A DNA stretch of 64,000 bases from a virus (IMGVR_UViG_3300037067_027616:402730-466729), one strand, 5' to 3'; counted from the first letter of the stretch, positions 7,526 through 20,183 are shown. The notes: generated by a model from the sequence alone, not told the origin. Numbers and translations: made by a program.

Positions 7526-8749
7526 ATGGCCAAAAAGGATTTAACGAAGAAACTCAGGTTGGTACGTTCAGGACAGGTTGGTGCAGGAGCCACGGCCTCC
7601 GCTGATGCCGAACAAAATGTGGATCAATACGGTTTGTCGATGCAGGAGGGTATCACCCGCCTCGAGGACGAGAACCGTAAGTTGCGCACGGAGCTTAAAA
7701 CGGCACAACGCGACTCGACGGTGTTCAAGATGCTTGCGGCGGTCATCGAGCAACAACCGCCGTTCTCCACGTTCACGCCATACAGTTCCATCATAGATCG
7801 TAAAACACGCATTACCGAATCGGCCATGCTTGTGTTCTCCGACAGCCATGCCGACCAGGAGATAATCGCCAACCGCGTCAGGGGCCTAGAGGAGTACGGG
7901 TTCGATATTGCTTGTCAGCGTGCGGAAAGAATAGTAGACACGACGATAAGTCACCTCATCGACAACATGAAGAACTACAGGTTTGAAACGCTTTACATTG
8001 CAGGTCTCGGTGATTACGTGAACGGCGAGATACACGGGGCCTCCGAACACAGCAAATGGCACAACGCCTTGAAGAATTCCATGGGAATGGGCGAACTGTT
8101 TGCCATGATGATAACCGATCTTTCAAGGTACTTCAAAAAGATTGTCGTGTGCAGCGTGTCCGGCAACCACGGTCGCAGATCAGCCAAGAAGGACTACCGA
8201 GGTGCACACGACAATTGGGATTACCTTGTAATTTCCCATGCCGCCACAAGGTTGAAGGGACTCATCGAGCAAGGCCGGGTGGAGATAGTTGCTCCGGACG
8301 CGTGGTCGATGATTGTGAATATATACGGATGGAATTTTGTTCTCAATCACGGTGACGACATCAGATCTTGGAATAGTCTCCCATGGTATGGGATCGAGAG
8401 GAAGACCCGCCGGCTCAATGCCATCGGGACTGTGACCGGGCAGATGCCAAATTATTATCTGTTTGGTCATTTTCATAATATGGGTTCACAACAGCATACG
8501 ACGGGGGAGACGATCGTAAATGGAAATTGGTGTGCCACAGACGAATATGCTTTGGAAAGTCTCGGGGCCTATTCGGAGCCTTATCAATGGCTCATGGGAA
8601 TTCACCCCACCTATGGTCTTACATGGCGCCTTCCAATAAAACTCAGGAAGAAGGATTGGCGTGAGTCTCTCGGTAAGGCTTCCAGGTACACTATTACACA
8701 ACTTGAGGGTAATTCGTTGGTGGGGGTTGACAAAGTTACTGAAGCGTAG
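7526..8749 (+). CDS. Calcineurin-like metallophosphoesterase with N-terminal coiled coil
   Basis: Motifs SDSH, GDYVNG, GNHG, HGD and GHFH in canonical order. Confidence 0.85.
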   Translation: MAKKDLTKKLRLVRSGQVGAGATASADAEQNVDQYGLSMQEGITRLEDENRKLRTELKTAQRDSTVFKMLAAVIEQQPPFSTFTPYSSIIDRKTRITESAMLVFSDSHADQEIIANRVRGLEEYGFDIACQRAERIVDTTISHLIDNMKNYRFETLYIAGLGDYVNGEIHGASEHSKWHNALKNSMGMGELFAMMITDLSRYFKKIVVCSVSGNHGRRSAKKDYRGAHDNWDYLVISHAATRLKGLIEQGRVEIVAPDAWSMIVNIYGWNFVLNHGDDIRSWNSLPWYGIERKTRRLNAIGTVTGQMPNYYLFGHFHNMGSQQHTTGETIVNGNWCATDEYALESLGAYSEPYQWLMGIHPTYGLTWRLPIKLRKKDWRESLGKASRYTITQLEGNSLVGVDKVTEA

Positions 8750-8755
8750 TATATT
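8727..8755 (+). promoter_or_regulatory. Sigma70-type promoter driving the ncRNA array
   Basis: TTGACA (8727-8732), 17 bp, TATATT (8750-8755); the first RNA stem begins about 7 nt downstream. Confidence 0.8.
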
Positions 8756-8761
8756 ATGTCC

Positions 8762-8928
8762 GTTGTGGTTCTTTCTCATTCCGGTCAGCACTCCATGCGA
8801 GGGCGTACATGTATAGCTCAATTGGATAGAGCGCAAGACTATTAATCTTGAGGTTGCGGGATCATATCCTGCTACAAATGTTACACACGCACTAGCGACT
8901 TGTGCTGATTGGAATGAGGAAGAACAAC
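8762..8928 (+). ncRNA. Structured RNA unit 1 (Y-RNA-like, tRNA-like apical domain, anticodon-position ATT)
   Basis: Basal stem GTTCTTTCTCATTCCGGTCAGCAC / GTGCTGATTGGAATGAGGAAGAAC. Core TCCATGCGAGGGCGTACAT...ACGCACTAGCGACTT. D-arm TAGCTCAATTGGATAGAGC, anticodon arm CAAGA-CTATTAA-TCTTG, T-arm GCGGG-ATCATAT-CCTGC. Confidence 0.75.
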
Positions 8929-8931
8929 TCT

Positions 8932-9068
8932 TTGAAAGTAAGTCTGCTCTCCACACCGGGGGCCTACATTCGATGGATAGTCGATGCTACGTACCGGGTT
9001 CTCCATAAGCCGTAAGTGCTTATGGTGGCTCGGTAAAGCAACCGGAACTCGAGCAGGTTTACCTTCAA
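8932..9068 (+). ncRNA. Structured RNA unit 2 (same core, hairpin apical domain)
   Basis: Basal stem TTGAAAGTAAGTCTGCTC / GAGCAGGTTTACCTTCAA. Core TCCACACCGGGGGCCTACATTCGAT...GCAACCGGAACTC. Apical CCATAAGC/GCTTATGG hairpin. Confidence 0.65.
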
Positions 9069-9070
9069 TT

Positions 9071-9232
9071 TGCTCTTTCACATTCTGGCCAGCACTCCAT
9101 GTTGGGGCGTACATTGCGATTAGCTCAATGGTAGAGCGCATTCCTTAAGAGAATGATGTCGCGGGCTCGAAACCCGTATTGCAAACCAAAACACGCATTA
9201 ACGACTTGTGCCGGCTAGAATGAGGAAGAGCG
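9071..9232 (+). ncRNA. Structured RNA unit 3 (same core, contains a complete tRNA cloverleaf)
   Basis: Basal stem TGCTCTTTCACATTCTGGCCAGCAC / GTGCCGGCTAGAATGAGGAAGAGCG. Core TCCATGTTGGGGCGTACAT...ACGCATTAACGACTT. Confidence 0.75.
9114..9188 (+). tRNA. tRNA-like element with TAA (Leu) anticodon, short variable loop and encoded CCA, embedded in unit 3
   Basis: Acceptor TTGCGAT/ATTGCAA, D-arm GCTC-AATGGTA-GAGC, anticodon arm CATTC-CTTAAGA-GAATG, T-arm GCGGG-CTCGAAA-CCCGT, then A-CCA; 75 nt. Confidence 0.6.
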
Positions 9233-9236
9233 ATGC

Positions 9237-9343
9237 TCTTTGACACAGACTCTCGTCCTCTATGCTCAGGGCGTACATTCGATACTACCATTAAGGTTTT
9301 GAATTAACGCACGAGTGACTTGAACGGGAGCCTGTGACAAAGA
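9237..9343 (+). ncRNA. Structured RNA unit 4 (same core, short apical domain)
   Basis: Basal stem TCTTTGACACAGACTCTCGTCC / GAACGGGAGCCTGTGACAAAGA. Core TCTATGCTCAGGGCGTACATTCGAT...ACGCACGAGTGACTT. Confidence 0.7.
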
Positions 9344-9349
9344 CCATAG

Positions 9350-9379
9350 AAGCCGGGGACTTCAAGTTCTCGGTTTTTT
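9350..9379 (+). terminator. Rho-independent terminator closing the ncRNA array
   Basis: AGCCGGGGAC-TTCAA-GTTCTCGGTT followed by TTTT. Confidence 0.75.
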
Positions 9380-9488
9380 CTTTGTCCCTGTTGTTTAAAA
9401 GTGTCTATTAATGTGTGTGAAAATTTATCGTTACAAATGAGGTTTCAAAAAGTATATTCGATAGGTCGCCAATAAAAAGGAGGGTGAG

Positions 9489-9743
9489 ATGGTACACGTT
9501 AAGTATGAGGGTCGTTCCGAGGACATCGAGTTTGACGCATTGTTCGCGCAGGATCGCCTGGCTTCTATAGGTATCCCTGCGGGTGTGGTGCCTACGCCGC
9601 AGTCGGTGACGCAACAGCAGATCAAGGTCGCCTTGGCGCAGCATTTCGATCGTGGTTTGACCGAGTTCGATGAGATGTATGTCGAGGTCAACCCGAATGG
9701 AAACATCACGGTGCGTCCGGAGGCAGTGTTCGGTACCCGGTAA
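9489..9743 (+). CDS. Small ubiquitin-like (beta-grasp) protein candidate
   Basis: AGGAGG RBS; 84 aa; beta-beta-alpha-beta-beta pattern (VHVKYEGRSEDI...QIKVALAQHF...MYVEVN..GNITVRPEAVFG-TR); E1 and JAB genes lie nearby. Confidence 0.6.
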   Translation: MVHVKYEGRSEDIEFDALFAQDRLASIGIPAGVVPTPQSVTQQQIKVALAQHFDRGLTEFDEMYVEVNPNGNITVRPEAVFGTR

Positions 9744-9819
9744 TAACAGGTCACAAGGTGAGGGGGTAACAAACATAACCCTTGTGACCTCTTGTCATAG
9801 TCTTGAACAAGGAGTCTGT

Positions 9820-10038
9820 ATGGTTCTTCTGTGGGACGTCATCGAGATAATTTTGGTGCTTGCTATTTTGATGTTCATGGTTACCCAGGTATTCCTCCCG
9901 ATTATACGGGGTACTCCGATGTACCCTTTTTTCAAGTCGAAGGAGCCAAAATTGTCAAAAGATTTGAAGGAGGCCCGGCAGAAGGTTGTTGAAAGTAACT
10001 TGAAAAAAGAGGTTGATGACACTAAGAACATTAAGTAG
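9820..10038 (+). CDS. Small membrane protein upstream of the SPFH gene
   Basis: AAGGAG RBS; N-terminal TM helix and a basic coiled tail. Confidence 0.6.
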   Translation: MVLLWDVIEIILVLAILMFMVTQVFLPIIRGTPMYPFFKSKEPKLSKDLKEARQKVVESNLKKEVDDTKNIK

Positions 10039-10084
10039 TTCCCGGTAACAGTCAAATAACATACAAATCAAAAAGGAGATTCAG

Positions 10085-11281
10085 ATGCAGACGAGAAATG
10101 ATCAGTTGTCCGCCCGTATCCCGCTTTCAGTCAACCGTAGCCTGCACCTTTTCGTGTGGGTCGGGATCTTCTTCCTTTTTATCCTGGCTTCCTTCAACCT
10201 TTGGGAGATGCTTGATTCCGACAAAATCATGGTGATCCAAAGCCCGTTCAAGGGGACATTGAATTGGCACACCAACGCAGGCATCAAGTGGCAAGGAATC
10301 GGAAAGGTATCAAAGTACCAAAAAAGGGACATCTACGAGTTTGAGATACCCGTGCGTTTCAACGATGGCGGACACGGGACCATCGTGGGATCCATACAGT
10401 ATGACATGCCCATTGATGCAGAGAATTTGACAGAGTTGCACACGAAATTTGGCAGCCAGAAGGCGGTGGAGTCGGCCCTCATTCAGACGGTGACCAACAA
10501 GGCGATTTACATGACGGGCCCCCTTATGTCATCTAAAGAGTCCTATGCGGAACGCAGGAATTATCTCATACGGTACGTAGAGGATCAAATCGAGAACGGC
10601 GTGTACAAGACCGTAAGCCGTGAGCAGAAGGTCATAGATCAGATGACCGGGCAGGAGAAAACGGCCACCGTTGTCGAGATCGTGTTGAAGGATGGTATTC
10701 CGGAAAGGCAGGAGAATGCCGTGTTGCAGGAGTTCGGGATACGGACATTCAACTTCTCCATCTTGAAGTTGCCGTATGACGATGCGGTGGAAGGCCAGAT
10801 TAAGGCCCAGCAACAGTTGGCGATGGACGTCCAAACCAGCATAGCCGAAGCCAAGAAAGCAGAGCAACGTGCCATCACGGTCGCCAAGAACGGCGAGGCG
10901 GAAGCCATGAAGGCAAAATGGGAGCAGGAAGTGGTTAAAGCAAAGGCCGTGACCCTTGCAGAGCAGAGTAAGGAAGTGGCAAAGCTCGAAAGGGACGCCT
11001 CTGAGTTCACTAAACAGAAGAACATCCTTGATGGAGAGGGAGAGGCCGCCAAGAAACGCCTTGTAATGCAGGCCGATGGCGCCCTTACGCAGAAGCTTGA
11101 AGCATGGGTGCAGGCGCAACAGTACTACGCCGCCGCCCTGCAGAATTTCAAAGGTAACCTCGTTCCAAGTGTCATCATGGGGGAATCCGGAAAAGGTTCG
11201 AGTAGCATGGATCTCATAAACCTTCTTACGGCGAAGACAGCGAAGGATCTTGCGTTGGACATGGAGATGAAGGGAAATTAA
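10085..11281 (+). CDS. SPFH / band-7 (prohibitin-like) membrane protein
   Basis: N-terminal TM helix, VRFNDGG SPFH core, long AE-rich coiled coil (AEAKKAEQRA...GEGEAAKKRL). Confidence 0.85.
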   Translation: MQTRNDQLSARIPLSVNRSLHLFVWVGIFFLFILASFNLWEMLDSDKIMVIQSPFKGTLNWHTNAGIKWQGIGKVSKYQKRDIYEFEIPVRFNDGGHGTIVGSIQYDMPIDAENLTELHTKFGSQKAVESALIQTVTNKAIYMTGPLMSSKESYAERRNYLIRYVEDQIENGVYKTVSREQKVIDQMTGQEKTATVVEIVLKDGIPERQENAVLQEFGIRTFNFSILKLPYDDAVEGQIKAQQQLAMDVQTSIAEAKKAEQRAITVAKNGEAEAMKAKWEQEVVKAKAVTLAEQSKEVAKLERDASEFTKQKNILDGEGEAAKKRLVMQADGALTQKLEAWVQAQQYYAAALQNFKGNLVPSVIMGESGKGSSSMDLINLLTAKTAKDLALDMEMKGN

Positions 11282-11353
11282 CAGATGAGGGACGGAGTGG
11301 TGGTCGCCGTCCCTCGGCGACCACCGCGGCCACCACATAAAATGGAGGAACAG

Positions 11354-12943
11354 ATGAACAGGCGTGTTGCAGCTCCCGCACCTCAGGCAGTGGAATCCCA
11401 GGACAAGCGCCTTGCGCTTCTCAACGCTTTCATGACGTGTCCGCACAGGGACACCGATCGCATCAAGCAGATCCATGACGAGGTGAGGAAGCAGGATCCT
11501 GTTTTCTACGCGCACCTTGCTTGTTGGTACGACCGTACCGGGGACATAAGGGATCACAAGGAAGTTTTCGCTTCCATGTTGACCGTTGACCCCTTCATGG
11601 ACAACCGTGAGGTCGGCCTCGCCTTGTTCAGGGACATGCCCATTTTCCTCAAGAAGAGGGTCGTGGGATTCATCAAGGGCAAGAAGGTGAAGATCCGCAC
11701 CAAGACCGGTGAGAAGATGACCGTCGAAAAGGGCAAGGCGAAGGGGAAGGTCATCGAGAAGGTCCGGGTCGAAGAGCGCAAGGTCGGACTCGATGCGAAC
11801 GTGCCGCACGGACTCAAGACCGAGGTGAAGAACTATCTCCGGTGGCTCGAATCCAATGACAAGCGGTGGGACGAGGCGGCCATACGTTCGTTCTGGGATC
11901 TCAAGTATCTGTACAAGTCCGGTGGACTGCAGATCAAGCCGAGTCCCAGGGCGCAGGAGATCCTGTTCGAGGGTAAGGTACCCGAGGGAAGCAAGCTGAA
12001 CGTCCTTGAGGAGTTCCGCAAGGCCAAGACCCCCGAGGAGGCTGCCAAGCTCATCGTCGAGAACAAGATCCCGTACACGGTGGCGGTCGGACTCACGGAC
12101 AAGGTAACGCCAAGCATACTCGTCGCCCTTATCGAGCGGATGTCACCGCAGGAACTTTTGAACAACATCGCCTCCCTTGAGGAGAAGGGGGCCATGGCTG
12201 TTCCGGAGGTCAAGGCCATCATCGACAAGAAGTTGGTGAAGGCCAAGACGGCCAAGGGTGTATCCGCGCTCAAGTCAAAGACGGCGAAGGCCACGGGGAG
12301 GATCAAGGACGAGTCGACCGCGAAGAAGCTGGACGAAATCGCCGACACCCAGATCAAGAGCAAGGGTGTCATCAGCCTTTCCACGGCTATTCTTATCGAC
12401 CGCTCCGGGAGTATGACGGAGGCCATCGAGGTGGGTAAGAGGCTGGCTACGGTTGTTTCCGGAGCCACCGTTGCCAACCTTCAGGTTGTGGCGTTTGATT
12501 CCTCGGCCGCAGAAGTCGTATCCAAGGGCAAGACGTTGAGTGATTGGGAAGATGCGTTCAAGGGCATCAACCCTGGCGGACAGACGTCCATCGGGTCGGC
12601 TTTGTACTACCTTCTGCGCAAGAAGGTGGTGGTCGAGCAGATCGTGGTCGTGACTGACGAGGGGGAGAACGCGCTTCCGTGGTTCACCGATATATACGAG
12701 AAGTATTGCACGGAGATGAAGGTGAAGCCCCATGTCGTGGTCATGCACGTGGGCGGAGCCGACAAGACGTTCTCTACGAACCTCACCCGGGCAAAAATCG
12801 AATTTGATACGTACACCCCGGAGGGGAGTGACTACTACGGGATGCCTGGTATCATACAGCTTTTGGCTCGTAAGTCGAAGCTCGACCTCGTCTACGAAAT
12901 CATGGACGAACCCCTCCGCAAGAGGGTGCCGTTCAAGGGGTAA
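11354..12943 (+). CDS. Ro60-like TROVE + vWA protein
   Basis: GGAGG RBS before ATG 11354. Helical N-terminus with DPVFYAHLACWY..GDIRD and MSPQELLNNIASL (TROVE-like). C-terminal vWA with MIDAS DRSGSM, GGQTS, VTDEGEN. Confidence 0.7.
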   Translation: MNRRVAAPAPQAVESQDKRLALLNAFMTCPHRDTDRIKQIHDEVRKQDPVFYAHLACWYDRTGDIRDHKEVFASMLTVDPFMDNREVGLALFRDMPIFLKKRVVGFIKGKKVKIRTKTGEKMTVEKGKAKGKVIEKVRVEERKVGLDANVPHGLKTEVKNYLRWLESNDKRWDEAAIRSFWDLKYLYKSGGLQIKPSPRAQEILFEGKVPEGSKLNVLEEFRKAKTPEEAAKLIVENKIPYTVAVGLTDKVTPSILVALIERMSPQELLNNIASLEEKGAMAVPEVKAIIDKKLVKAKTAKGVSALKSKTAKATGRIKDESTAKKLDEIADTQIKSKGVISLSTAILIDRSGSMTEAIEVGKRLATVVSGATVANLQVVAFDSSAAEVVSKGKTLSDWEDAFKGINPGGQTSIGSALYYLLRKKVVVEQIVVVTDEGENALPWFTDIYEKYCTEMKVKPHVVVMHVGGADKTFSTNLTRAKIEFDTYTPEGSDYYGMPGIIQLLARKSKLDLVYEIMDEPLRKRVPFKG

Positions 12944-12948
12944 AGATC

Positions 12949-13191
12949 GTGTTCGACTTTGAAAACCTGGAAGCCGACCTCAAGGATCTCCTCTCGCGTT
13001 CGCGGGAGGATGGTTCTTCTTTTGGGTCGTATGTGGAATCGTTCGCGAGTAAATGGCTGGTGAAAACCGAGCCTATGAAGCATGACATAGTCACACGTTT
13101 CTTGAGCGAGAACAAGAGTCCCGCGAGGATACGTCCGCTTGATATGCGCGGCGTACCCCCCGATGGGATGGGGAAGGCTGATAGTGCGTGA
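12949..13191 (+). CDS. Hypothetical protein
   Basis: Coupled between the TROVE gene and the 13188 gene. Confidence 0.5.
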   Translation: MFDFENLEADLKDLLSRSREDGSSFGSYVESFASKWLVKTEPMKHDIVTRFLSENKSPARIRPLDMRGVPPDGMGKADSA

Positions 13192-14060
13192 ACGACATCC
13201 TGTCTGTCATATCCAAGATGGCCTCCGCGGAGTCAACTCTCCTCGGTAGCACCTTCGTGGCACCCGTAGCCGGTAACGATGTCGTCGCGGCCTGCGTGTG
13301 CGGTATGTCCTACACGTTCTCCATACCAAAAGTGGAAAAGCCCGGGTGGTACGAATTCAAGCCCAGGGACTCGAAAAAGGCCTCTGTGGTAGGTCCTGCC
13401 GACCTGGCAGAGACCGAAGGATACCTTAAGAGGTTGCCATCCGTGCGCGTGGTGCTTTCCCACAAGATCAAGGGTATATACCACGGTGTTCCGCTCAAGT
13501 CAAATTCGGCGGGACTTCCTTGTACGGGTCTTGTACCGATTCTTCTCGTGGATGACATGGCTGACGATTTTGACAAGGTGGTGTGCCGTTACGATGGCAT
13601 GAACCTGTGGTACGATCGTGTCGATGCATCCAACGACCAATCCAAGGGCGAGTACCTCAGGGAGAGGTACGCCAAGCTCTCCATCCCGGCATCGTTGAAG
13701 TTCAAGGGACTGACGTTCGAGGAGAAGGCCGCTTATTCAATACGCATCACTATGGATAAAAAGGCCATAGAGGAACACAGGACGAAGTCCGTTAAGATTG
13801 ATGTGGAGCATGCCGGCGGTGTCTTCAAGGGCCTCAAGGAGAAGCGTGAGCATTATGAAGTTACCTACGAGGTAGATGGGCAGAGGTACATGAGTGTCAT
13901 TTCCAAGGATCCCGCGCGCAGTGTCATCAGTGCCGGTATATGTTTGTCAGGTGGCGATAGGGCATTTGATTTGAAGAGTCTTATCACAGTCATGCGCGAA
14001 GGTCAGCACCGAGGCAGGATAGTACGAGGCCACGGTGATTTTGGTCATTGGGAGCATTGA
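13188..14060 (+). CDS. Conserved hypothetical protein, candidate divergent E2-like enzyme
   Basis: C-terminal beta-meander followed by SAGICLSG (G-x-ICL resembles the E2 catalytic Cys context); lies in the TROVE operon. Confidence 0.45.
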   Translation: MNDILSVISKMASAESTLLGSTFVAPVAGNDVVAACVCGMSYTFSIPKVEKPGWYEFKPRDSKKASVVGPADLAETEGYLKRLPSVRVVLSHKIKGIYHGVPLKSNSAGLPCTGLVPILLVDDMADDFDKVVCRYDGMNLWYDRVDASNDQSKGEYLRERYAKLSIPASLKFKGLTFEEKAAYSIRITMDKKAIEEHRTKSVKIDVEHAGGVFKGLKEKREHYEVTYEVDGQRYMSVISKDPARSVISAGICLSGGDRAFDLKSLITVMREGQHRGRIVRGHGDFGHWEH

Positions 14061-14061
14061 T

Positions 14062-14289: not shown

Positions 14290-14296
14290 GGTTATT

Positions 14297-15961
14297 ATGT
14301 CAACCACATCCCTCGTGCAGGCTATCAAGGAATTCAAGGACAAGCAGGCGAAAGTTTCGTCTCCGTCCGATGTGGTGCTTCAAACTGTTTCGTGGGATCT
14401 CGACACGGCGTTCGTGGGACGACGTATCAACGCATCGACTGTCGGCCGTTTGAGCGCGTATGTCGATCGCAGGCTCGAGGAATACTCGGCGATTCACAAC
14501 AGTATGCCCGCCGTCCGCACACCCGTCCGTACCCCCGATATTGCGGTTGATCTAGGGGTCGTTCCAGATGAAAAACCGATAGGACACGTAATACGTATTA
14601 ACCCCATGCCAGATGACGATCACGTTGCACATGACACCAACACGGATATTTTTAATCGTCCCAACCCCTTCGCGGATGAAGAATCGGAGATACCACCACA
14701 AAGATTAAACACTGAAGAATCTCAAGACGAAGCCATGCGTGAGTGTGTCAACGAGGCTCGTGCGGGAGGCGTGCCGGCAGGTGCTATCTACAATGACGGC
14801 CAAATTGACTATCCTAAAGGGCAAGAAGATGAGGGTGAACGAGATGTGAACAGGTTTTATCAAGACGACACGGAGATCGCCTTGCCTCGAAGGGAGTGCG
14901 CCGGGATTAGTGTGAGGAGGCTTCCTGACAGCACTGTTGAGGGTTTCAGATTGAAGACACAGGATCCAAACGCTAGAATCCCTTTATATCACCCTCTTCC
15001 AGAGGACGGGGTAGGTGGTTTTGATGGTGCCATTTTTCACCACAGTGACAACAAACAAGCGAATAGTAGCAGAGTTGGTTTCGCTGACGCCAGTGCATAT
15101 GAGCAATCGTGGCAGATGGGCGGGAATCTTGATACGTTGGTCAATTCACAAGGGTTGCTCCCCGAAGTTACAAATAGGGTGCGAGACACATTCTTGCGCG
15201 AGCCCCCTGAAGTAGCCGACACCCAACCTCGTGAGGGTGTTCTGCGAACTCAAGATGGTCAGGAAATCGGCGCTCAAGATTTACGCCCCATATCCAATAG
15301 CATCTTGCGCACGCAAGATCTACGAGAAATCAATAACGATCCGATGCGGCCCATCAAAATAAAACCCACTCATGTGGGATTGAACCCTTTCAGAACTCCC
15401 TGGCCGTGGCCTCGTAATAATACGACCGACACCACTTCGTACGTCACTTCCTACGATATTGACCACCATACCCTCAAAATAACCGCACGGGTTTTAACGG
15501 TGCCTTCCTTAATGAAGGTCAACAGTGAGTTGTGGTTTAATATATGTTCCGAGTCCGAACCCAAGGACTTGAAGGAAGTCATCCGCAGGACCGTGAAGGC
15601 CAACCTCCTCATATGCTTGAAGAAATGCCGCAGCGAAGGGTGGCATACGGACGAAGAAGGTACAGAGGAATTGGCTTTGTGCACACTACGCGAGATGATA
15701 TCCGAAAAAGATTTCAAGAAATACCTCAAATATGGATTCGTGGCGATCAAGGGTAAAAGCGGAGACGTCTATCAAGTGTTCCGCAACAAGCATCACACGA
15801 AAGTGTGGCGGGGCAACAGAGTTGTGGAAGAAATATGTATTCGGTTGTGTTCAAAGGTTAAGGTACCTCCGACAGACAACGTGATCGCCTTCATGACGAT
15901 GATATCGGCCGATGAGGAAGCATTCAAGAAAGCCGGCAACAGATACAAGGGGGTGTTATGA
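14297..15961 (+). CDS. Hypothetical protein with disordered middle and conserved phage C-terminal domain
   Basis: C-terminal ALCTLREMISEKDFKKYLKYGFV..G.SG.VYQ...ICI...PPTDNVIA....DEEAF...N; short internal repeats (LRTQD, QDLRPI). Confidence 0.6.
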   Translation: MSTTSLVQAIKEFKDKQAKVSSPSDVVLQTVSWDLDTAFVGRRINASTVGRLSAYVDRRLEEYSAIHNSMPAVRTPVRTPDIAVDLGVVPDEKPIGHVIRINPMPDDDHVAHDTNTDIFNRPNPFADEESEIPPQRLNTEESQDEAMRECVNEARAGGVPAGAIYNDGQIDYPKGQEDEGERDVNRFYQDDTEIALPRRECAGISVRRLPDSTVEGFRLKTQDPNARIPLYHPLPEDGVGGFDGAIFHHSDNKQANSSRVGFADASAYEQSWQMGGNLDTLVNSQGLLPEVTNRVRDTFLREPPEVADTQPREGVLRTQDGQEIGAQDLRPISNSILRTQDLREINNDPMRPIKIKPTHVGLNPFRTPWPWPRNNTTDTTSYVTSYDIDHHTLKITARVLTVPSLMKVNSELWFNICSESEPKDLKEVIRRTVKANLLICLKKCRSEGWHTDEEGTEELALCTLREMISEKDFKKYLKYGFVAIKGKSGDVYQVFRNKHHTKVWRGNRVVEEICIRLCSKVKVPPTDNVIAFMTMISADEEAFKKAGNRYKGVL

Positions 15962-16335
15962 GTGACCTGGATAAGGCATTTCAAGTGTTAGAGATGTATG
16001 GCGTTCCAAAATCGAGGGCGCGCACGGTCGCAAACGGTATTCAAGTTTTGATGGATAGACTTCACCGTGCCGAACTATCTGCCGATATTGTTCCATGTAG
16101 TAATTGGGTTGAGGGCAACGGGTGTTCCATTGGGTTTGGTGACAAGTGTTCTGCCAGGCGGTGTATGCTTACACGTAATCAAGATACCATACTAAAACGC
16201 ATGCAAGATGACGCTTGCCCTTTTTGCGTAGGACGAACAGGTATGGTGAGTGCAACGTGTGAGGAATGTTTCGGGTCAGGTAAACGACTTCAAACAGAGA
16301 TAAAAGATAATGCGATCAGTGCCACCAACGAGTAG
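15958..16335 (+). CDS. Cys-rich hypothetical protein with DnaJ-like CxxCxGxG motif
   Basis: CPFCVGRTG...CEECFGSG. Confidence 0.5.
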   Translation: MSDLDKAFQVLEMYGVPKSRARTVANGIQVLMDRLHRAELSADIVPCSNWVEGNGCSIGFGDKCSARRCMLTRNQDTILKRMQDDACPFCVGRTGMVSATCEECFGSGKRLQTEIKDNAISATNE

Positions 16336-16371
16336 TCAAATACACTTAAACCATACGGGAAGGGGTTTATT

Positions 16372-16554
16372 ATGGAGTTCTACATCGTCGTAGCGGCGTT
16401 CGCGATCGTGATTGCCATTCTTTTGGGTAAGAGAATCGGTATCAACCTCAAATTGGTTGGCTTTGCGGCCATCATCGGGCTTGTGTTGACTTTTATTTCG
16501 ACGGCCATCGTGTCCGTTTACACGGCAATATGGTTGTTCAAATTTTTGAGATAG
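16372..16554 (+). CDS. Small 2-TM membrane protein
   Basis: Two hydrophobic helices; GGGG-type RBS. Confidence 0.5.
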   Translation: MEFYIVVAAFAIVIAILLGKRIGINLKLVGFAAIIGLVLTFISTAIVSVYTAIWLFKFLR

Positions 16555-16561
16555 CAGGAAC

Positions 16562-16751
16562 AGGCGCTAACCTTATCAGTCATGGTGCGTACTGTGCGAG
16601 GCCGTGATCGCTGGAAACAGCTTACCTGTGCGTCCCCGATAAGGGGGACTGAATAGGGACATAGGTCACCCGCCCAAAAAAATATCGCGGGTACATCAAG
16701 AGGATGTCCATAGTCTTCGGTGGTGTTCCCATTAATGAGAGCACCGCGCCT
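16562..16751 (+). ncRNA. Candidate multi-stem structured RNA with possible pseudoknot
   Basis: Gene-free 190 nt closed by AGGCGC/GCGCCT, with at least six internal helices including GCTG-GAAA-CAGC. Confidence 0.45.
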
Positions 16752-16769
16752 TTTTAAAAAGGAATTGAC

Positions 16770-17129
16770 ATGAAGTACAAAATTGGTGACATAGCCGAGT
16801 GTATCGAATCGGACATCAGTGCCATCGTGGTAACCCCCACCAAATGTATAAGAGACGGCTTTTTTCTTTTTTGCGACATAGACCGTGACCGCGGGACCAT
16901 CTACCAAGGAACATACACAGACGAAGGTTTGTTTCCCGACCAACCAGCCGTTAATGTGCGCGTTGAAAAAATAGTATACGTTGGCGCGTTCAAAGGTGAC
17001 GTTGATACTGTCAAAGATTTGGAAAAATTTGTAGTGAACAACGTACCATTGGTAATTCTTGAGGAGTTGGCTAAACATGCACGACCGGATGTAAAAAGCC
17101 TCGCCAAGAAGCGCTTGAAAAAGAAATGA
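16770..17129 (+). CDS. Hypothetical protein
   Basis: AAGGA RBS; MKYKIGD start typical of phage KOW-like proteins. Confidence 0.55.
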   Translation: MKYKIGDIAECIESDISAIVVTPTKCIRDGFFLFCDIDRDRGTIYQGTYTDEGLFPDQPAVNVRVEKIVYVGAFKGDVDTVKDLEKFVVNNVPLVILEELAKHARPDVKSLAKKRLKKK

Positions 17130-17509
17130 GGTGGTTCATGGCTTTTCTGCATTGTCACTCGTGCGATTGGTCCCAAGACGACTATTGGGATTTCAGCATC
17201 CGACGCGGCTATGGCCACTTCAAGGTGCTCGGGATTGAGTGGCAGTACAACCCGGTGTCCTGCTTCTTGTCCTACGTGTTCGGCAGACACGGCTATTGGT
17301 GGCCGCGCCGGATAGACTTCGATGACAACACTGCCAAGGAATGCGGCTGGAAGCGCAGAGACCCACACTCATGGTTCCTCATTGTGCGGGAGTTCAAAAG
17401 GATGATCCGCAAGTTCAAGAACCAGCGCTGGTGGACGCACGAGAAGTTTTTGGCGGACGTGGACGCCGTGTGTCCCAATTGTGGGAAAAGGAATTTCGAT
17501 GAGGATTGA
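17126..17509 (+). CDS. Trp-rich Zn-ribbon hypothetical protein
   Basis: CHSC...CPNC; ATGA coupling. Confidence 0.55.
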   Translation: MRWFMAFLHCHSCDWSQDDYWDFSIRRGYGHFKVLGIEWQYNPVSCFLSYVFGRHGYWWPRRIDFDDNTAKECGWKRRDPHSWFLIVREFKRMIRKFKNQRWWTHEKFLADVDAVCPNCGKRNFDED

Positions 17510-17531
17510 AATTTAACAAGGAGCCGTAGTC

Positions 17532-17852
17532 ATGTTTAAAAAGATTGTGTCGTGTGTGCTGATTGTTTGTGTGCTTTCGGTAGTTGTTGGTTGTGGATCC
17601 GACAGGACCGTATGCCTTCCTGGCGCCGATGAGAAACAGGTGTGTAAAACATATGGACAGTATGGAATGTTCAACGGTTACGACATGAAAAACCAACACG
17701 TTCAGTATCGAGTTATCGTCGGAAATGTCGTGTGGGCAATCATATTGGTAGAAACAATTTTCACCCCTATCATTATTTTTGGGTGGTACTTGTATGAACC
17801 CATAGGACCTCGAGCGGTTATACCTAATGACATTGGGGTGGTCAATAATTAA
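17532..17852 (+). CDS. Putative lipoprotein / membrane protein
   Basis: Signal peptide with VVVGC lipobox; second hydrophobic segment GNVVWAIILVETIF. Confidence 0.6.
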   Translation: MFKKIVSCVLIVCVLSVVVGCGSDRTVCLPGADEKQVCKTYGQYGMFNGYDMKNQHVQYRVIVGNVVWAIILVETIFTPIIIFGWYLYEPIGPRAVIPNDIGVVNN

Positions 17853-18103
17853 AAGACCCAACAAAGGTCATGAACCCCAAACAGGGGGTGTTGAATGGGT
17901 GACGAAGTGCAGGGTATGTCCACAGAGGATCTTATCTCCAATTTGGTTACTTGTGACTACCGTGGCCAAGCTTTCAAAAGGTGCTGTTTGGATGAACTCC
18001 TTTTGAGAAAAACCCGTGATGAGATTAAAAACGTTCAAGAGGTAGGGGTAGAGAAGCCAATAGCCCAAGGATAGGGAAGGAAATAATCCGAGTAAAATTT
18101 GTT

Positions 18104-18132
18104 TGGACAAAACAATTTTGAAAAAGTATATT
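18104..18132 (+). promoter_or_regulatory. Sigma70-type promoter of the JAB...E1 operon
   Basis: TGGACA, 17 bp, TATATT; AT-rich UP-like context. Confidence 0.6.
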
Positions 18133-18179
18133 TATAAAGACACAGAAGCTACGAGTAGTTTAAAGAACAGGATATACTG

Positions 18180-18557
18180 ATGGCTTTCTCTGAAGAATGC
18201 TGGGCGTTGCGTGGGTTGAACCTCGATCCCGTTTTGTGGATCTGGAGGGAGCAGTACATATCAAAGGGTAGCGGGGCAAGTGTCAATTTCGATTGGGAGA
18301 AGGCTTGGGACGACAAGTCAATTATCGGTTGGAGGCACACCCACCCAGGAACGAATTTTGATTTTCCGAGCAGTGTTGACGACAGAACCATGAAATCCTG
18401 GGTGAAGGCAACGGGGAAGTCAATGATATGTGGAGTGACTTGCGGGACGTCCACAAAATATTATCTTTACGGAGCCAATATCGGCGGGGATATGGATTCT
18501 GAATTGCGATACATCCGTATACCTGTTTTAGGGGTGGTGCTGGCCAATCAAAATTAA
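18180..18557 (+). CDS. JAB/MPN+ (JAMM) metallo-isopeptidase
   Basis: N-terminal Glu (SEEC) and IIGWRHTHP...PSSVD, matching HxHx7Sx2D. Confidence 0.8.
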   Translation: MAFSEECWALRGLNLDPVLWIWREQYISKGSGASVNFDWEKAWDDKSIIGWRHTHPGTNFDFPSSVDDRTMKSWVKATGKSMICGVTCGTSTKYYLYGANIGGDMDSELRYIRIPVLGVVLANQN

Positions 18558-18576
18558 GTTCGAGGGAGAATCTCCC

Positions 18577-18774
18577 GTGGGTGATAAGAAGGAAACAAAA
18601 GAGCGAGCCGACCCCACATCCTGTCCGTTAGCGGGGTGTGCTCACAGGGAGGGATGCGCTATAATCGATATCACAGGCAAAGCTCCGAAGCCGGGTGGGA
18701 AGTGTTCATATTACGAGAAGGAACACACGGGTCGTAAGAAGGTCAACAAAAACGAAGGTTCTAACGAGTTGTAA
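18577..18774 (+). CDS. Small Cys-rich protein
   Basis: CP..GC....C...CSYY. Confidence 0.4.
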   Translation: MGDKKETKERADPTSCPLAGCAHREGCAIIDITGKAPKPGGKCSYYEKEHTGRKKVNKNEGSNEL

Positions 18775-18782
18775 ACACAATC

Positions 18783-19301
18783 ATGGGGGTAAATATGAAG
18801 GAACGTACGGCGTCCATACCGAAGTTTGAGTTCACCGGGAGTCCTTTGGATCCGGAAAAGACCATGATGCTGATGGGACTCATAGTGGCTACCAAATCAC
18901 CCGACAACCCGGAAGTTCCTATGGAGAAGGACGGGAACCTCATGGACATGTTTTTGGCCAAAGTGGCTGAGGCGAGGATACGTGTGTACCCGCTCCCGTT
19001 CAACATCACGAATTTTTTCTTCGCCGCCTCGATGATTACCTTCATGAACACCCCGGGCATGGTCATGGGTATGCTTTGGCTGGCCAAATGCTACGCCGAG
19101 AAGACAGGCAAAAAGGTGCTGACGGTGGGTGATTGGTGCGAGATGTTCCCGGTTGGTACACCGACCCCGGAGGAATGCGAGAGGTGGTGGGACGCGCAGA
19201 AGGTCACCTGGGAGAGGAAGTCGTTGGAAAGCGACAATATGGTCGACTACCCCGAATTGTGGGGGTGTGTTGATAAGTCCATAGAGAACGCGACTGTTTA
19301 A
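18783..19301 (+). CDS. Hypothetical protein
   Basis: 172-aa ORF in the JAB-E1 gene run. Confidence 0.55.
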   Translation: MGVNMKERTASIPKFEFTGSPLDPEKTMMLMGLIVATKSPDNPEVPMEKDGNLMDMFLAKVAEARIRVYPLPFNITNFFFAASMITFMNTPGMVMGMLWLAKCYAEKTGKKVLTVGDWCEMFPVGTPTPEECERWWDAQKVTWERKSLESDNMVDYPELWGCVDKSIENATV

Positions 19302-19319
19302 CCAACGAAGGAAAAACCC

Positions 19320-19529
19320 ATGCCGATCGAACACACAAAGAAATTTGGCATCTACCATTGGGATACGTTTGACAATGAAACATATATGGTGGATGAAGCC
19401 GATACATTGGCAAAAGCTGAAAGCGTAGTCAAGAAAACGTACGGCGAAAGAATCAGGGACACCGGGGCGGATCAAGTGGACATCGTAGATAGCAAAGGAA
19501 ACGTTGTCAAGTCTTACAAAATCGGGTGA
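19320..19529 (+). CDS. Small hypothetical protein
   Basis: AAGGA RBS; 69 aa. Confidence 0.55.
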   Translation: MPIEHTKKFGIYHWDTFDNETYMVDEADTLAKAESVVKKTYGERIRDTGADQVDIVDSKGNVVKSYKIG

Positions 19530-19541
19530 ACGGAGATAGAC

Positions 19542-20183
19542 GTGGCAGACGTATTGGTGCATGAAAGGGTATACCGCGGAGAGGCGGTCATGGCCAAAAT
19601 GGCCGCACTGCAGATAACCGTCTGCGGCGCCGGGGCTGTTGGCTCGAACCTCATCGACAACATTTCCCGGCAGGGCTTCAAAAAGATAACGGTCATCGAT
19701 GACGACCGTGTCGAGGCCCACAACATCCCTACACAGGTATGGTCAAGGCGCGAAGTCGGGCAATTCAAGGCCGCCATGCTCAAGAACCTGGTGTTCAATT
19801 CGTCCGGTGCAACGGTGGAGGCCGTCACGCGCAGGCTCGATGACGGTAATGTGAAGAAGTACCTGTCGACCGCCGGCCTTGTCGTGGACGGCTTTGACAA
19901 TTCCGCGAGCCGTGCGTTGGTCGCCAAATACTGCAGGGAGGCCAAAAAGGACTGTTTGCACGTGGGTTTGGCGAAGGATTACGCCGAAGTCGTCTGGAAC
20001 GAGCGGTACCGGGTGCCAAAGGACGTGGTGGGTCAGGACGTGTGTGAGTACCCCATGGCCAGGAACACCATCCTGTTGGCCGTTTCCGTGGCTTCAGAGG
20101 TCATTGTGAGGTATGTGGCCACCGGAGAGAAAAAAGACTACGTAATTACCCTTGGGGATTTCAAGGTTGATGGTGTTTTGTAA
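19542..20183 (+). CDS. ThiF/MoeB/E1-like adenylyltransferase (minimal E1)
   Basis: CGAGAVG nucleotide-binding loop, DDDRVEAHNIPTQ, conserved Lys (GQFKA), VVDGFDN; candidate catalytic Cys in DVCEYP; no CxxC Zn pairs. Confidence 0.9.
   Translation: MADVLVHERVYRGEAVMAKMAALQITVCGAGAVGSNLIDNISRQGFKKITVIDDDRVEAHNIPTQVWSRREVGQFKAAMLKNLVFNSSGATVEAVTRRLDDGNVKKYLSTAGLVVDGFDNSASRALVAKYCREAKKDCLHVGLAKDYAEVVWNERYRVPKDVVGQDVCEYPMARNTILLAVSVASEVIVRYVATGEKKDYVITLGDFKVDGVL

What the first reader, a model, noticed from the sequence alone, without database searches (positions are those of the whole stretch)
8727..20183. Candidate new system: phage Ro60-like RNP with its own RNA array, linked to a ubiquitin-like conjugation module (Ubl, E1, JAB, possible E2) and an SPFH scaffold
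Seen in sequence: promoter, four structured RNAs and a terminator (8727-9379), followed directly by an 84-aa protein ending PEAVFG-TR, a small TM protein, an SPFH protein, a TROVE-like+vWA protein and a protein with SAGICLSG. About 4 kb further on, a promoter of the same type drives a JAMM peptidase ... ThiF/E1 operon. Established: Ro60 (TROVE+vWA) binds Y RNAs that are usually encoded next to it, bacterial YrlA-type Y RNAs carry tRNA-mimic domains, and E1+JAB+Ubl sets perform Ubl conjugation and deconjugation. No thiamine or molybdopterin synthesis genes (ThiG, MoaE) are in the window, which argues against a sulfur-carrier role. Inference: the phage encodes an RNA-scaffolded RNP whose components or targets are Ubl-tagged, perhaps membrane-tethered through SPFH, acting in RNA-damage response or counter-defence. 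From memory (unverified), similar vWA/ThiF/small-protein neighbourhoods occur in some bacteria; I do not know of a functional description.
Basis: partly seen in the sequence, partly recalled or inferred. Interest (0 to 1): 0.93.

Follow-up and report, generated by a model that had tools for sequence, protein, structure and literature searches.

The report
Ro60-like RNA particle with ubiquitin-like module
A 467-kb phage carries a gene set, shared with other huge phages and some bacteria, that joins a Ro60-type RNA-binding ring protein and its own tRNA-shaped small RNAs to a small ubiquitin-like protein and its activating enzyme; I found no paper describing this link between RNA surveillance and protein tagging.

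Summary
A strong promoter (8727-8755) drives four structured RNAs (8780-8913, 8938-9062, 9084-9219, 9247-9333) that end at a terminator (9348-9378). The four share a stem / internal loop / stem scaffold with strong covariation and carry different cargoes, two of them tRNA cloverleaves.

The 533-aa protein (11342-12943) folds as full-length Ro60 (TROVE ring plus vWA), although no TROVE sequence model detects it. The 84-aa protein ends in an invariant Gly followed by a variable 0-4 residue tail. The E1 (ThiF) has an intact adenylation site and an invariant Cys. The JAB has its metal motif.

The link between the two halves is real. In 17 phage loci and in bacterial genomes (e.g. Dictyobacter alpinus) the order is RNAs, Ubl, Ro60-like, 290-aa protein, (JAB), E1, often gene against gene.

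Not supported: the SPFH/TM pair is not core (2 of 17 phage loci), and JAB is absent from the bacterial versions. The "E2" is an OB-fold protein with an invariant Cys. Its topology is E2-like, but no structural match to E2 was found.

The mechanism (Ubl conjugation on the RNP) is inferred. A sulfur-carrier role is weakened but not excluded. This scan has already flagged the same system on other DNA, in at least 32 genomes.

The parts
8727..8755 (+). Sigma-70-type promoter of the RNA array
   Evidence: TTGACA-17-TATATT, 11 of 12 matches, the best site in 8500-20700.
8780..8913 (+). RNA unit 1. Scaffold (outer stem, UCCAU / GACUU internal loop, 9-bp inner stem, UACA) enclosing a degenerate tRNA-like cloverleaf (8806-8881, 'anticodon' AUU, no CCA). 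The outer stem extends to about 8765-8927.
   Evidence: Fold; tRNA hits (52 bits); model R2 hit E = 3.2e-4.
8938..9062 (+). RNA unit 2. Same scaffold (UCCACA loop, CUACA, AACUC) with a cargo of hairpins that is not tRNA-shaped.
   Evidence: R1 hit at 35.8 bits, E = 1.4e-6, without being in the training set; R2 E = 5e-9.
9084..9219 (+). RNA unit 3. Same scaffold enclosing a complete cloverleaf (9114-9188) with a 7-bp acceptor stem, a discriminator A and an encoded CCA; 'anticodon' UAA.
   Evidence: Rfam tRNA at 59.2 bits; sequence; R2 E = 6.7e-5.
9247..9333 (+). RNA unit 4. Minimal unit: scaffold plus one small hairpin.
   Evidence: Folds; R2 E = 5.3e-9. It was one of the six training sequences for R1.
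9348..9378 (+). Intrinsic terminator of the RNA array
   Evidence: 14-bp stem followed by a T run.
9430..9458 (+). Promoter of the same type in front of the Ubl-like gene
   Evidence: GTTACA-17-TATATT.
9489..9743 (+). 84-aa ubiquitin-like candidate (p84). Invariant C-terminal Gly82 in the motif ...NGNITVRPxAxFG, here followed by a Thr-Arg tail.
   Evidence: It lies beside the Ro60-like gene in 13 of 17 phage loci and 8 of 11 genome loci. The Atlas model has pTM 0.71, and its nearest named cluster carries Prok_Ub at TM 0.47.
9820..10038 (+). Small single-pass membrane protein (accessory, not conserved in the module)
   Evidence: A homologue appears only in L012.
10085..11281 (+). SPFH/Band-7-like protein (accessory)
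   Evidence: Band_7 at 23.1 bits (cut-off 23.6); phrog_11908 at 1e-38. A homologue appears only in L012, there between JAB and E1.
11342..12943 (+). Ro60-like protein: HEAT-repeat ring plus a vWA domain with an intact MIDAS site (D353, S355, S357, T415, D439), and a long conserved basic beta-hairpin insert (residues 114-148).
   Evidence: AF2 pLDDT 85. The Foldseek top 12 hits are all Ro60 over the full length. Invariant residues. More than 841 homologues.
13188..14060 (+). 290-aa protein (p290): N-terminal helix, two beta-barrels (OB-fold at 83-150), then a long helix, a 4-strand sheet, the invariant Cys252 (AGICLSG.D..FDL) and a final helix. It is the candidate Ubl acceptor / E2-like partner of the E1.
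   Evidence: AF2 pLDDT 88.8. OB-fold matches. Invariant residues. It sits directly upstream of the E1 in bacteria. The C-terminal domain family has 1042 clusters, the listed ones mostly with the same architecture.
18104..18132 (+). Promoter of the same type in front of the JAB...E1 genes
   Evidence: TGGACA-17-TATATT.
18180..18557 (+). JAB/JAMM metallopeptidase (conserved N-terminal Glu, H-x-H, S-x-x-D). Present in 12 of 17 phage loci and in the phage-like contig L030, absent from the bacterial modules.
19542..20183 (+). Minimal E1-like adenylating enzyme (ThiF family, 213 aa). Invariant GxGxxG, R43, D53, R56, N61, Q65, K76, D119-N120, R124 and Cys168.
   Evidence: Pfam ThiF E = 5e-26; alignment A6; synteny.

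Best explanation
This is one conserved system with six kinds of parts:
- an array of Y-RNA-like small RNAs;
- a Ro60-fold ring protein;
- a small ubiquitin-like protein (p84);
- a minimal E1 (ThiF);
- an OB-fold protein with an invariant cysteine (p290);
- in phages only, a JAB peptidase.

Shown here: the parts exist, they look intact, and they travel together in huge phages and in bacteria.

Inferred working model:
1. The RNAs use their common stem / internal loop / stem scaffold to bind the Ro60-like ring, as Y RNAs bind Ro60. They present exchangeable cargo: a whole tRNA, a circularly permuted YrlA-like tRNA mimic, or plain hairpins.
2. JAB removes the short tail after Gly82 of p84.
3. The E1 adenylates that Gly and takes it onto Cys168.
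4. p84 passes to Cys252 of p290, whose OB-folds sit on the RNA or the RNP.
5. p84 ends up attached to the Ro60-like particle or to something it has captured.
6. JAB can reverse this in phages.

The likely setting is handling of damaged or foreign structured RNA (tRNA-like substrates) during infection or stress.
For: Ro60 fold:
- The AF2 model has pLDDT 85.
- The Foldseek top 12 PDB hits are all Ro60 over about 530-580 aligned columns, E from 2.5e-11 to 1.4e-8, TM about 0.6. They include the Deinococcus Rsr and the Thermus phage phiLo Ro60.
- The only PDB sequence-profile hits, although weak, are to TROVE proteins and are collinear.

RNA family:
- A model built from 6 short units finds 63 full or near-full matches in 467 kb of loci. 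In the loci I compared by coordinate they lie within a few kb of the Ro60-like gene, and I saw none elsewhere.
- On 53 sequences, 88% of cells pair against 56.5% in shuffles. The covariation score is 0.853 against 0.254 (0 of 500 shuffles reach it), and registers slid by 1-3 columns score at most 0.21. Twenty of 21 pairs change on both sides.
- The whole 467-kb genome has only 6 hits.
- The cargo of permuted units gives sub-threshold Rfam YrlA hits: L032 at 46 bits, E = 4e-7.

Synteny:
- The order p84, Ro60-like, p290, JAB, E1 is contiguous in, for example, L015 at 9727-13367.
- In bacteria the order is p84, RNAs, Ro60-like..., p290, E1. This holds in the Dictyobacter alpinus 5.58-Mb contig and in a 779-kb Chloroflexia contig.

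Ubl logic:
- Gly82 is invariant. Phage copies carry tails of 0-4 residues; the chromosomal bacterial copies end exactly at Gly.
- The E1 adenylation residues and Cys168 are invariant.
- p290 Cys252 is invariant in 37 sequences, and p290 abuts the E1 gene in bacteria.
- The JAB motifs are conserved.
- JAB is kept even where p84 has no tail (L010/L011, L016, L021). That fits deconjugation, not only trimming.

Against the sulfur route: the phage genome has no ThiG, MoaE, PP-loop ATPase or rhodanese.
Against: - There are no binding or activity data. RNA-Ro binding, adenylation, thioester transfer and the target are all inferred.
- p290 gave no match to any E2 by Foldseek, VIA-align, Pfam, a PDB profile or the Atlas. 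Its Cys lies only about 4 residues after the last strand, unlike canonical UBC enzymes.
- The beta-grasp fold of p84 is not demonstrated. There is no Pfam or PDB hit, and TM to a cluster carrying Prok_Ub is only 0.47.
- The scaffold lacks the known Ro-binding motifs: GNCGAA in YrlA and CGAA in phiLo Yrl (PMC4201824, PMC12135203).
- The bacterial modules lack JAB, so deconjugation is not essential to the core.
- The covariation alignment was fitted to the model's structure, which favours that structure.
Confidence: 0.45

Rival explanations
1. Sulfur-carrier pathway. The E1 adenylates p84, which is then converted to a C-terminal thiocarboxylate (as with ThiS, MoaD, TtuB, CysO or QbsE). The sulfur is delivered, with the help of the p290 cysteine and its RNA-binding OB-folds, to the tRNA-like RNAs or to tRNAs held by the Ro60-like ring. 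JAB only trims the tail or cleaves adducts, as the JAMM enzymes Mec+ and QbsD do.
For: - The best family matches of the E1 are ThiF/ThiS adenylyltransferases, although below their cut-offs.
- JAMM peptidases are known partners of sulfur carriers (PMC1779556, and general knowledge of Mec+/CysO and QbsD/QbsE).
- The substrates at hand are tRNA-shaped, and T-loop thiolation by the Thermus TtuB/TtuC system is a precedent (general knowledge).
- p290 has an OB-fold of the S1/CSD type.
Against: - The 467-kb genome has no PP-loop ATPase (the enzyme class that thiolates RNA), no rhodanese, no ThiG and no MoaE, and none lies in the related modules I inspected by Pfam.
- The E1 has no rhodanese domain.
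- p84 ends in aromatic-Gly, not Gly-Gly.
- JAB is kept where there is no tail to trim.
- Host enzymes could still supply the missing steps, so this reading is weakened, not excluded.
Confidence: 0.15
2. The stems are only processing signals. Units 1 and 3 are ordinary phage tRNA genes whose flanking helices guide nuclease processing, and the RNAs sit next to the Ro60-like gene for unrelated reasons.
For: - Unit 3 has a 7-bp acceptor stem, a discriminator base and an encoded CCA.
- Many embedded cloverleaves in relatives also carry CCA.
- M. smegmatis YrlA is cut by RNase P (10.1101/312249).
Against: - The same scaffold encloses non-tRNA cargo and near-empty hairpins of 76-87 nt.
- None of the 45 tRNA hits in the genome's tRNA island (173996-210277) overlaps a scaffold unit.
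- The scaffold is found next to Ro60-like genes in phages and bacteria, and essentially nowhere else in 467 kb.
- The 'anticodons' are not conserved and several are abnormal: AUU, a 4-base one and a 2-base one.
Confidence: 0.07
3. Two independent systems, a Ro60 RNP and an E1/JAB pair, that merely lie near each other in a gene-dense huge phage.
For: - In this window they are separated by about 4 kb of unrelated ORFs and have separate promoters.
- A preprint on Asgard viruses lists Ro60 and ThiF/E1 genes in the same genomes as separate features (10.1101/2021.07.29.454249).
Against: - The five genes are contiguous in several relatives (L015, L016, L017, L020, L030).
- The set p84, Ro60-like, p290 and E1 recurs in bacterial chromosomes at 28-46% identity.
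- Each gene is single-copy in this genome.
Confidence: 0.03

Closest known systems
Bacterial and phage Ro60 (Rsr) with Y RNAs: Salmonella/Mycobacterium YrlA (Rfam RF02553; PMC4201824; 10.1101/312249), the Deinococcus Rsr/Yrn1/PNPase particle, and Thermus phage phiLo Ro60 with Yrl1/Yrl2 (PMC12135203)
   Same: - A ring of HEAT repeats closed by a vWA domain (fold match).
- Small RNAs encoded directly beside the gene.
- A stem / internal loop / stem module joined to a tRNA-like module.
- Some cargoes follow the YrlA order T arm, closed acceptor stem, D arm, and give sub-threshold YrlA hits.
   Different: - No TROVE sequence match. Pfam finds only a weak vWA, and identity to solved Ro60 structures is 12-15%.
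- The ring carries an extra basic beta-hairpin.
- The RNA scaffold has other conserved elements (5' YCYAAC-like loop, 3' RACUY, GC-K-UACA) instead of GNCGAA/CGAA.
- No Rfam hit reaches the gathering score.
- Cargo is exchangeable and includes complete, non-permuted tRNAs with CCA.
- The locus always carries a Ubl and an E1, which is not reported for Rsr loci. Those pair with RtcB/RtcA or act with PNPase.
Prokaryotic Ubl systems with a minimal E1 and a JAMM peptidase: archaeal SAMP/UbaA/HvJAMM1 and Thermus TtuB/TtuC (PMC4443979, PMC2948915; general knowledge), and the operons surveyed by Iyer et al. 2006 (PMC1779556)
   Same: - A small protein with a C-terminal Gly.
- A ThiF-type E1 with a crossover-loop Cys.
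- A JAB peptidase with an intact metal site.
- No canonical E2 or E3.
   Different: - p84 matches none of the Pfam Ubl families, and it ends in aromatic-Gly rather than Gly-Gly.
- The module has a dedicated OB-fold/Cys protein.
- It is tied to an RNP and its RNAs.
- No sulfur-transfer partners are present.
Bacterial E1-E2-JAB defence modules: CBASS Cap2/Cap3 and Bil/Bub-type systems (PMC10097602, PMC11601596)
   Same: An E1 domain of the same superfamily (PADLOC E1-E2 models match the E1 part, E = 1e-15), a JAB partner, and a cysteine-bearing partner protein next to the E1.
   Different: - There is no fused or recognisable E2; the PADLOC match covers only the adenylation domain.
- There is no CD-NTase or other effector.
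- p290 and p84 match no PADLOC model.
- The system is carried by phages as well as by cells.
Eukaryotic non-canonical E1 cascades: Uba5-UFM1 and Atg7-Atg8/Atg12 (from memory, not tested here)
   Same: A short homodimer-type E1 with its catalytic Cys inside the adenylation domain, and a Ubl that ends in (aromatic)-Gly with a short tail removed by a protease.
   Different: No sequence relationship was shown, the partners differ, and the context is prokaryotic or viral and linked to RNA.

Membership tests
Ro60 / TROVE family | Sequence match to the TROVE domain (Pfam PF05731) | tested here: not met
   Pfam reports only VWA_2 at 26 bits (cut-off 27) and VWA_CoxE. PHROG 850 'RNA-binding protein' matches only the vWA part. 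NCBIfam gives nothing. The PDB profile hit to TROVE proteins has E = 0.37.
Ro60 / TROVE family | Toroid of HEAT-like repeats closed by a vWA domain | tested here: met
   AF2 pLDDT 85, pTM 0.79. The Foldseek top 12 hits are all Ro60 over the full length, E from 2.5e-11 to 1.4e-8, TM 0.51-0.65.
Ro60 / TROVE family | MIDAS motif in the vWA domain | tested here: met
   D353, S355, S357, T415 and D439 are invariant in 36 sequences.
Ro60 / TROVE family | Binds Y RNAs encoded beside the gene | not testable with these tools
   The adjacency is shown. Binding is not.
YrlA-type Y RNA (Rfam RF02553) | Score at or above the Rfam gathering threshold (69 bits) | tested here: not met
   No YrlA or Y_RNA hit at E <= 10 on window 8600-9600. 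In relatives the cargo gives 46.2, 26.2 and 24.7 bits.
YrlA-type Y RNA (Rfam RF02553) | 5'-strand Ro-binding motif GNCGAA(N)G / CGAA | tested here: not met
   The motif is not in the scaffold of any of the four units (sequences). The conserved elements are instead a YCYAAC-like loop, GC-K-UACA and RACUY.
YrlA-type Y RNA (Rfam RF02553) | tRNA-like module in the order T arm, closed acceptor stem, D arm | tested here: met
   This is met by the units in the genome's tRNA island and by units in L013, L021 and L032. The four window units instead carry non-permuted cloverleaves or other hairpins.
Ubiquitin-like / ThiS-MoaD beta-grasp proteins | C-terminal Gly available for adenylation | tested here: met
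   Gly82 is invariant. It is followed by 0-4 residues in phages and by none in the chromosomal bacterial copies.
Ubiquitin-like / ThiS-MoaD beta-grasp proteins | Beta-grasp fold | tested here: inconclusive
   The Atlas's own model has pTM 0.71. Its nearest neighbours are unnamed small bacterial proteins (TM 0.7-0.9), and a cluster carrying Prok_Ub in 17% of members scores only TM 0.47. There is no Pfam or PDB sequence hit.
E1-like adenylating enzymes (ThiF family) | ThiF domain with the nucleotide-binding and catalytic residues | tested here: met
   Pfam ThiF 91.6 bits (cut-off 28.1). GxGxxG, R43, D53, R56, N61, Q65, K76, D119-N120 and R124 are invariant.
E1-like adenylating enzymes (ThiF family) | Conserved Cys able to take the acyl group | tested here: met
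   Cys168 (DVCEYP) is invariant in 12 sequences. Its chemistry is untested.
JAB/JAMM metallopeptidases | E ... H-x-H ... S-x-x-D metal site | tested here: met
   The motif is present in the window protein and in 9 relatives. Pfam Prok-JAB scores 20.1 bits, below the cut-off of 25.
E2 / UBC-fold conjugating enzymes | UBC fold (helix, 4-strand antiparallel sheet, Cys loop, helices) | tested here: inconclusive
   The p290 C-terminal part has this order of elements. However, Foldseek and VIA-align lists are filled by its OB-fold, and no E2 appears. Pfam, the PDB profile and the Atlas give nothing. The domain could not be folded alone.
E2 / UBC-fold conjugating enzymes | Invariant catalytic Cys | tested here: met
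   Cys252 is invariant in 37 sequences within G-I-C-L. There is no HPN motif.
SPFH / Band-7 | Band_7 domain above the Pfam cut-off, and conserved membership of the module | tested here: not met
   The score is 23.1 bits against a cut-off of 23.6. A homologue is present in only 1 of the other loci (L012), at a different position.

The most novel reading that the evidence does not exclude
The Ubl machinery acts on RNA rather than on protein. The E1 makes p84-Gly-adenylate, which is chemically the same step as aminoacyl-adenylate formation. With p290 holding the RNA through its OB-folds, p84 is then esterified to the CCA end (or another hydroxyl) of the tRNA-like cargo after RNase P/Z-type opening. 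The product would be a protein-RNA conjugate displayed on the Ro60-like ring. Alternatively, the ring-bound RNA directs p84 onto RNA-bound client proteins, which would amount to RNA-guided protein tagging.
Probability: 0.06. Interest if true: 0.97.

Novelty: new variant of a known kind. Interest (0 to 1): 0.8.

Why it matters
Ro60-Y RNA particles and ubiquitin-like tagging are each well studied, in autoimmunity, RNA quality control and antiviral defence. As far as I could search, they have never been shown to be genetically wired together.

Here they form one conserved module found from huge phages to cultured bacteria. It comes with a new Y-RNA-like scaffold whose cargo can be swapped (a whole tRNA, a permuted tRNA mimic, or a plain hairpin). 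It also includes two large protein families with no annotation: p84, and p290 with more than 1000 clusters at 50% identity.

The open questions it raises are:
- what Ro60's vWA/MIDAS domain is for;
- how Y RNAs recruit effectors;
- whether prokaryotic Ubl systems can be aimed at RNPs.

The module also occurs in Dictyobacter alpinus Uno16, a cultured isolate, so these questions could be tested directly at the bench.

Tried and rejected
- DNA searches of the region against the phage collection found nothing: megablast on 8700-20200 and blastn on the RNA array.
- tblastn with the Ro60-like protein found only one unannotated 595-kb phage.
- The search for related loci with the single protein found nothing. 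The alignment-based scan worked.
- Pfam, NCBIfam, PHROGs and PADLOC gave nothing for p84 or p290.
- PDB sequence-profile hits for p84 (aldo-keto reductases) and p290 (adhesin repeats) are spurious.
- The Atlas search of the p290 C-terminal part gave nothing.
- Neither Foldseek nor VIA-align listed any E2 for p290; the OB-fold fills both lists.
- My first regular-expression scan for RNA units was too loose, at about 40-85 chance hits per shuffled genome. I tightened it to about 1 per genome and then replaced it with covariance models.
- RNAalifold on a MAFFT alignment missed the outer stem because the 5' loop length varies.
- Burroughs & Aravind 2016 (NAR 44:8525), the paper most likely to mention such a neighbourhood, is not held. 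I therefore cannot exclude prior description there.
- I considered and rejected PRTRC-type and CBASS-type membership. Only the generic E1 domain matches.

Full report
**Setting.** The window is the last 64 kb of a 466.7-kb virus record (G000:C1:402730-466729) that CheckV rates 98% complete. Almost all long ORFs are on the + strand and G+C is about 49%. The genome has 45 tRNA matches clustered at 174-210 kb on the minus strand. Only two further tRNA-like hits exist, and both lie inside the finding.

**The RNA array.**
- The best promoter match of the region, TTGACA-17-TATATT at 8727-8755, is followed by 624 nt that fold into four separate domains and a 14-bp terminator at 9348-9378. The fold scores z = -7.5 against shuffles.
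- The four domains share one scaffold: an outer stem of at least 9-12 bp; an internal loop with 5-7 nt on the 5' side (here UCCAU, UCCACA or UCUAUG) and RACUY on the 3' side; a 9-bp inner stem ending in GC-K; and then UACA.
- The cargo differs between units. Unit 1 holds a degenerate cloverleaf ("anticodon" AUU, no CCA). Unit 3 holds a complete one, with a 7-bp acceptor stem, a discriminator A and CCA. Units 2 and 4 hold other hairpins.

**Is the RNA family real?**
- With fixed geometry and both stems required, a regular-expression scan finds about 1 chance hit per shuffled 467-kb genome. It finds 2-5 units in each 20-kb related locus.
- Outer-stem pairs 10-12 were not used for selection. They still pair in 72-84% of units, against about 51% when partners are permuted across the whole stem.
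- A covariance model built from six short units (R1) found 63 matches at E < 1 in 467 kb of loci. Nearly all are full length. In the loci I compared by coordinate they lie within a few kb of the Ro60-like gene, and I saw none elsewhere.
- On the resulting 53-sequence alignment, 88.1% of cells pair against 56.5% in shuffles. The covariation score is 0.853 against 0.254 (0 of 500 shuffles reach it) and at most 0.21 in slid registers. Twenty of 21 pairs show changes on both sides. This alignment is fitted to the model, which favours the structure, but the slid controls share that bias.
- The second model (R2) finds six places in the whole genome: the four window units and two in the tRNA island at 182883-183042 and 183146-183292, minus strand. 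The stricter regular-expression scan adds a third unit there at 182721-182872.
- The tRNA-island units, and units in L013, L021 and L032, carry cargo in the order T arm, closed acceptor stem, D arm. This is the circularly permuted layout described for YrlA (10.1101/312249). They give sub-threshold Rfam YrlA hits: 46.2 bits, E = 4e-7 in Dictyobacter, against a gathering score of 69.
- The published Ro-binding motifs, GNCGAA (PMC4201824) and CGAA (PMC12135203), are not in the scaffold.

**The Ro60-like protein.**
- Sequence models see only a borderline vWA domain.
- An AF2 model from 36 homologues has pLDDT 85 and pTM 0.79. Its 12 best PDB matches are all Ro60 over the full length: frog and human Ro60, Deinococcus Rsr and Thermus phage phiLo Ro60, with E from 2.5e-11 to 1.4e-8. 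Bare vWA domains follow from E = 2e-5.
- The MIDAS residues are invariant.
- A conserved, lysine-rich beta-hairpin (residues 114-148) is inserted into the ring.
- The family is large. More than 841 clusters at 90% identity were found among the 8000 candidates scored, many on contigs of 100-470 kb.

**The ubiquitin-like half.**
- *p84.* It ends ...NGNITVRPEAVFG-TR. In 11 aligned homologues Gly82 is invariant. In phages it is followed by nothing or by K, G, KS, RG, IA, TR or KIET. The chromosomal bacterial copies end exactly at ...YG or ...FG. This is the pattern of a Ubl precursor. The fold itself is only weakly indicated.
- *E1.* It is a 213-aa ThiF-family protein (91.6 bits). All adenylation residues and Cys168 are invariant.
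- *JAB.* It has the Glu, H-x-H and S-x-x-D elements.
- That order of elements resembles an E2, but no E2 appeared in any search. I therefore leave this open.
- A profile of the p290 C-terminal domain finds 1042 clusters at 50% identity. Most of the listed ones have the same ~280-aa architecture, and none in the top 150 is long enough to be an E1 fusion.

**Are the two halves one system?** Yes.
- Among 17 phage loci holding a full-length relative of the Ro60-like protein, the order p84, Ro60-like, p290, JAB, E1 recurs and is often contiguous. In L015 all five genes lie within 9727-13367.
- The window's version is interrupted. The TM and SPFH genes sit between p84 and the Ro60-like gene, and about 4 kb of unrelated ORFs sit between p290 and JAB.
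- In cellular genomes the order is p84, RNA units, Ro60-like, a few variable genes, p290, E1. This holds in the Dictyobacter alpinus Uno16 5.58-Mb contig, a 779-kb Chloroflexia contig, and Anaerolineae and Vulcanimicrobiota MAGs.
- In those genomes no JAMM motif lies in the module. The nearest Prok-JAB genes that can be placed are about 90 and 185 kb away.
- The core is therefore the RNAs, p84, the Ro60-like protein, p290 and the E1. JAB is a phage-side addition.
- SPFH with its TM partner is an occasional passenger, found in the window and in L012 at different positions.
- Some MAG contigs may be mis-binned phages. L033, for example, carries 23 tRNAs. The large contigs cannot be.

**How it most likely works (inferred).**
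- The scaffold binds the Ro60-like ring as Y RNAs bind Ro60, and the cargo recruits or mimics tRNA-interacting partners.
- The E1 activates p84 at Gly82 after JAB removes the tail. p84 then passes by thioester to p290 Cys252, and from there to a lysine on the particle or on its clients. JAB reverses the tagging.
- Three observations favour conjugation over sulfur transfer. JAB is kept even where p84 has no tail. p290 and the E1 are tightly paired, and each has an invariant Cys. The whole phage genome lacks ThiG, MoaE, PP-loop ATPases and rhodanese.
- Against certainty: there are no biochemical data, the E2 is unproven, the beta-grasp fold is unproven, and host sulfur enzymes could substitute.

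**What is known.**
- Ro60 and Y RNAs in phages are known (PMC4201824, PMC12135203, PMC7824862).
- Ubl/E1/JAB operons are known (PMC1779556).
- Full-text searches found no paper among those listed that mentions TROVE alongside JAB, ThiF and ubiquitin-like terms.
- Only one paper mentions Ro60, ubiquitin-like, Y RNA and phage together. It is a preprint on Asgard viruses that lists Ro60 and E1-like genes as unrelated features.
- Burroughs & Aravind 2016 could not be read.

**Earlier notes of this scan.** They describe the same system in at least 32 genomes, with the same reading. One of those reports was later marked as partly fallen, and no detail was available to me. I treat these notes as leads only.

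**Verdict.** This is a real, conserved module that is, as far as I could check, undescribed. Its parts are familiar but their coupling is new, and its mechanism remains to be shown.

Noticed in passing
window 20244-20592: A tmRNA gene (Rfam 162 bits, tag peptide AEDYSYAMAEAA) lies directly after the E1 gene. The related phage locus L012 has the same arrangement, with a tmRNA at 20554-20954 after its E1. In both, a radical-SAM-like gene follows (window 21078-21989).
   Followed up: partly
own genome outside the window: G000 182721-183292, minus strand: A second array of three scaffold units sits inside the big tRNA island. Each carries a circularly permuted tRNA-like cargo: T arm, closed acceptor stem, D arm and an anticodon-like hairpin.
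   Followed up: partly
own genome outside the window: about G000 182288-182491, minus strand (L043 906-1109): A sub-threshold match to archaeal-type RNase P RNA (54.8 bits, E = 1.4e-12, gathering score 84; about 200 nt against a 288-position model). It lies between tRNA genes and next to the second array. It may be a minimal phage RNase P RNA.
   Followed up: no
window 8806-8881 and 9114-9188; loci L001, L010-L022, L036, L039: The 'anticodons' of the embedded cloverleaves are not conserved: att, taa, cga, tgt, gat, tat, aat, ctg, gca, tca, ttc, and loops read as 4 or 2 bases. Several would read stop codons (UAA-, UCA- and CUA-type loops).
   Followed up: partly
window 11342-12943, protein residues 114-148: The Ro60-like ring carries a long, conserved, lysine-rich two-strand beta-hairpin that is predicted with lower confidence (pLDDT 62-80). 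I did not check solved Ro60 structures for an equivalent.
   Followed up: no
window 9820-11281 and L012 15257-16740: The small membrane protein and the SPFH protein travel as a pair. In two related phages they sit inside the module but at different positions: between Ubl and Ro60-like here, between JAB and E1 in L012.
   Followed up: partly
window 7526-8749: An Mre11/SbcD-like exonuclease (phrog_284, E = 5e-38) ends inside the RNA promoter region. It is conserved upstream only in L013.
   Followed up: no
window 18577-19529: Three small ORFs lie between JAB and E1: 65 aa (Cys-rich), 172 aa, and 69 aa ending in Gly. None has a homologue at this position in the related loci, so the 69-aa protein is unlikely to be the cognate Ubl.
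   Followed up: partly
L032 9518-11063 (Dictyobacter alpinus): In the bacterial module a HAD-family hydrolase and a second, stand-alone vWA protein lie between the Ro60-like gene and p290.
   Followed up: no
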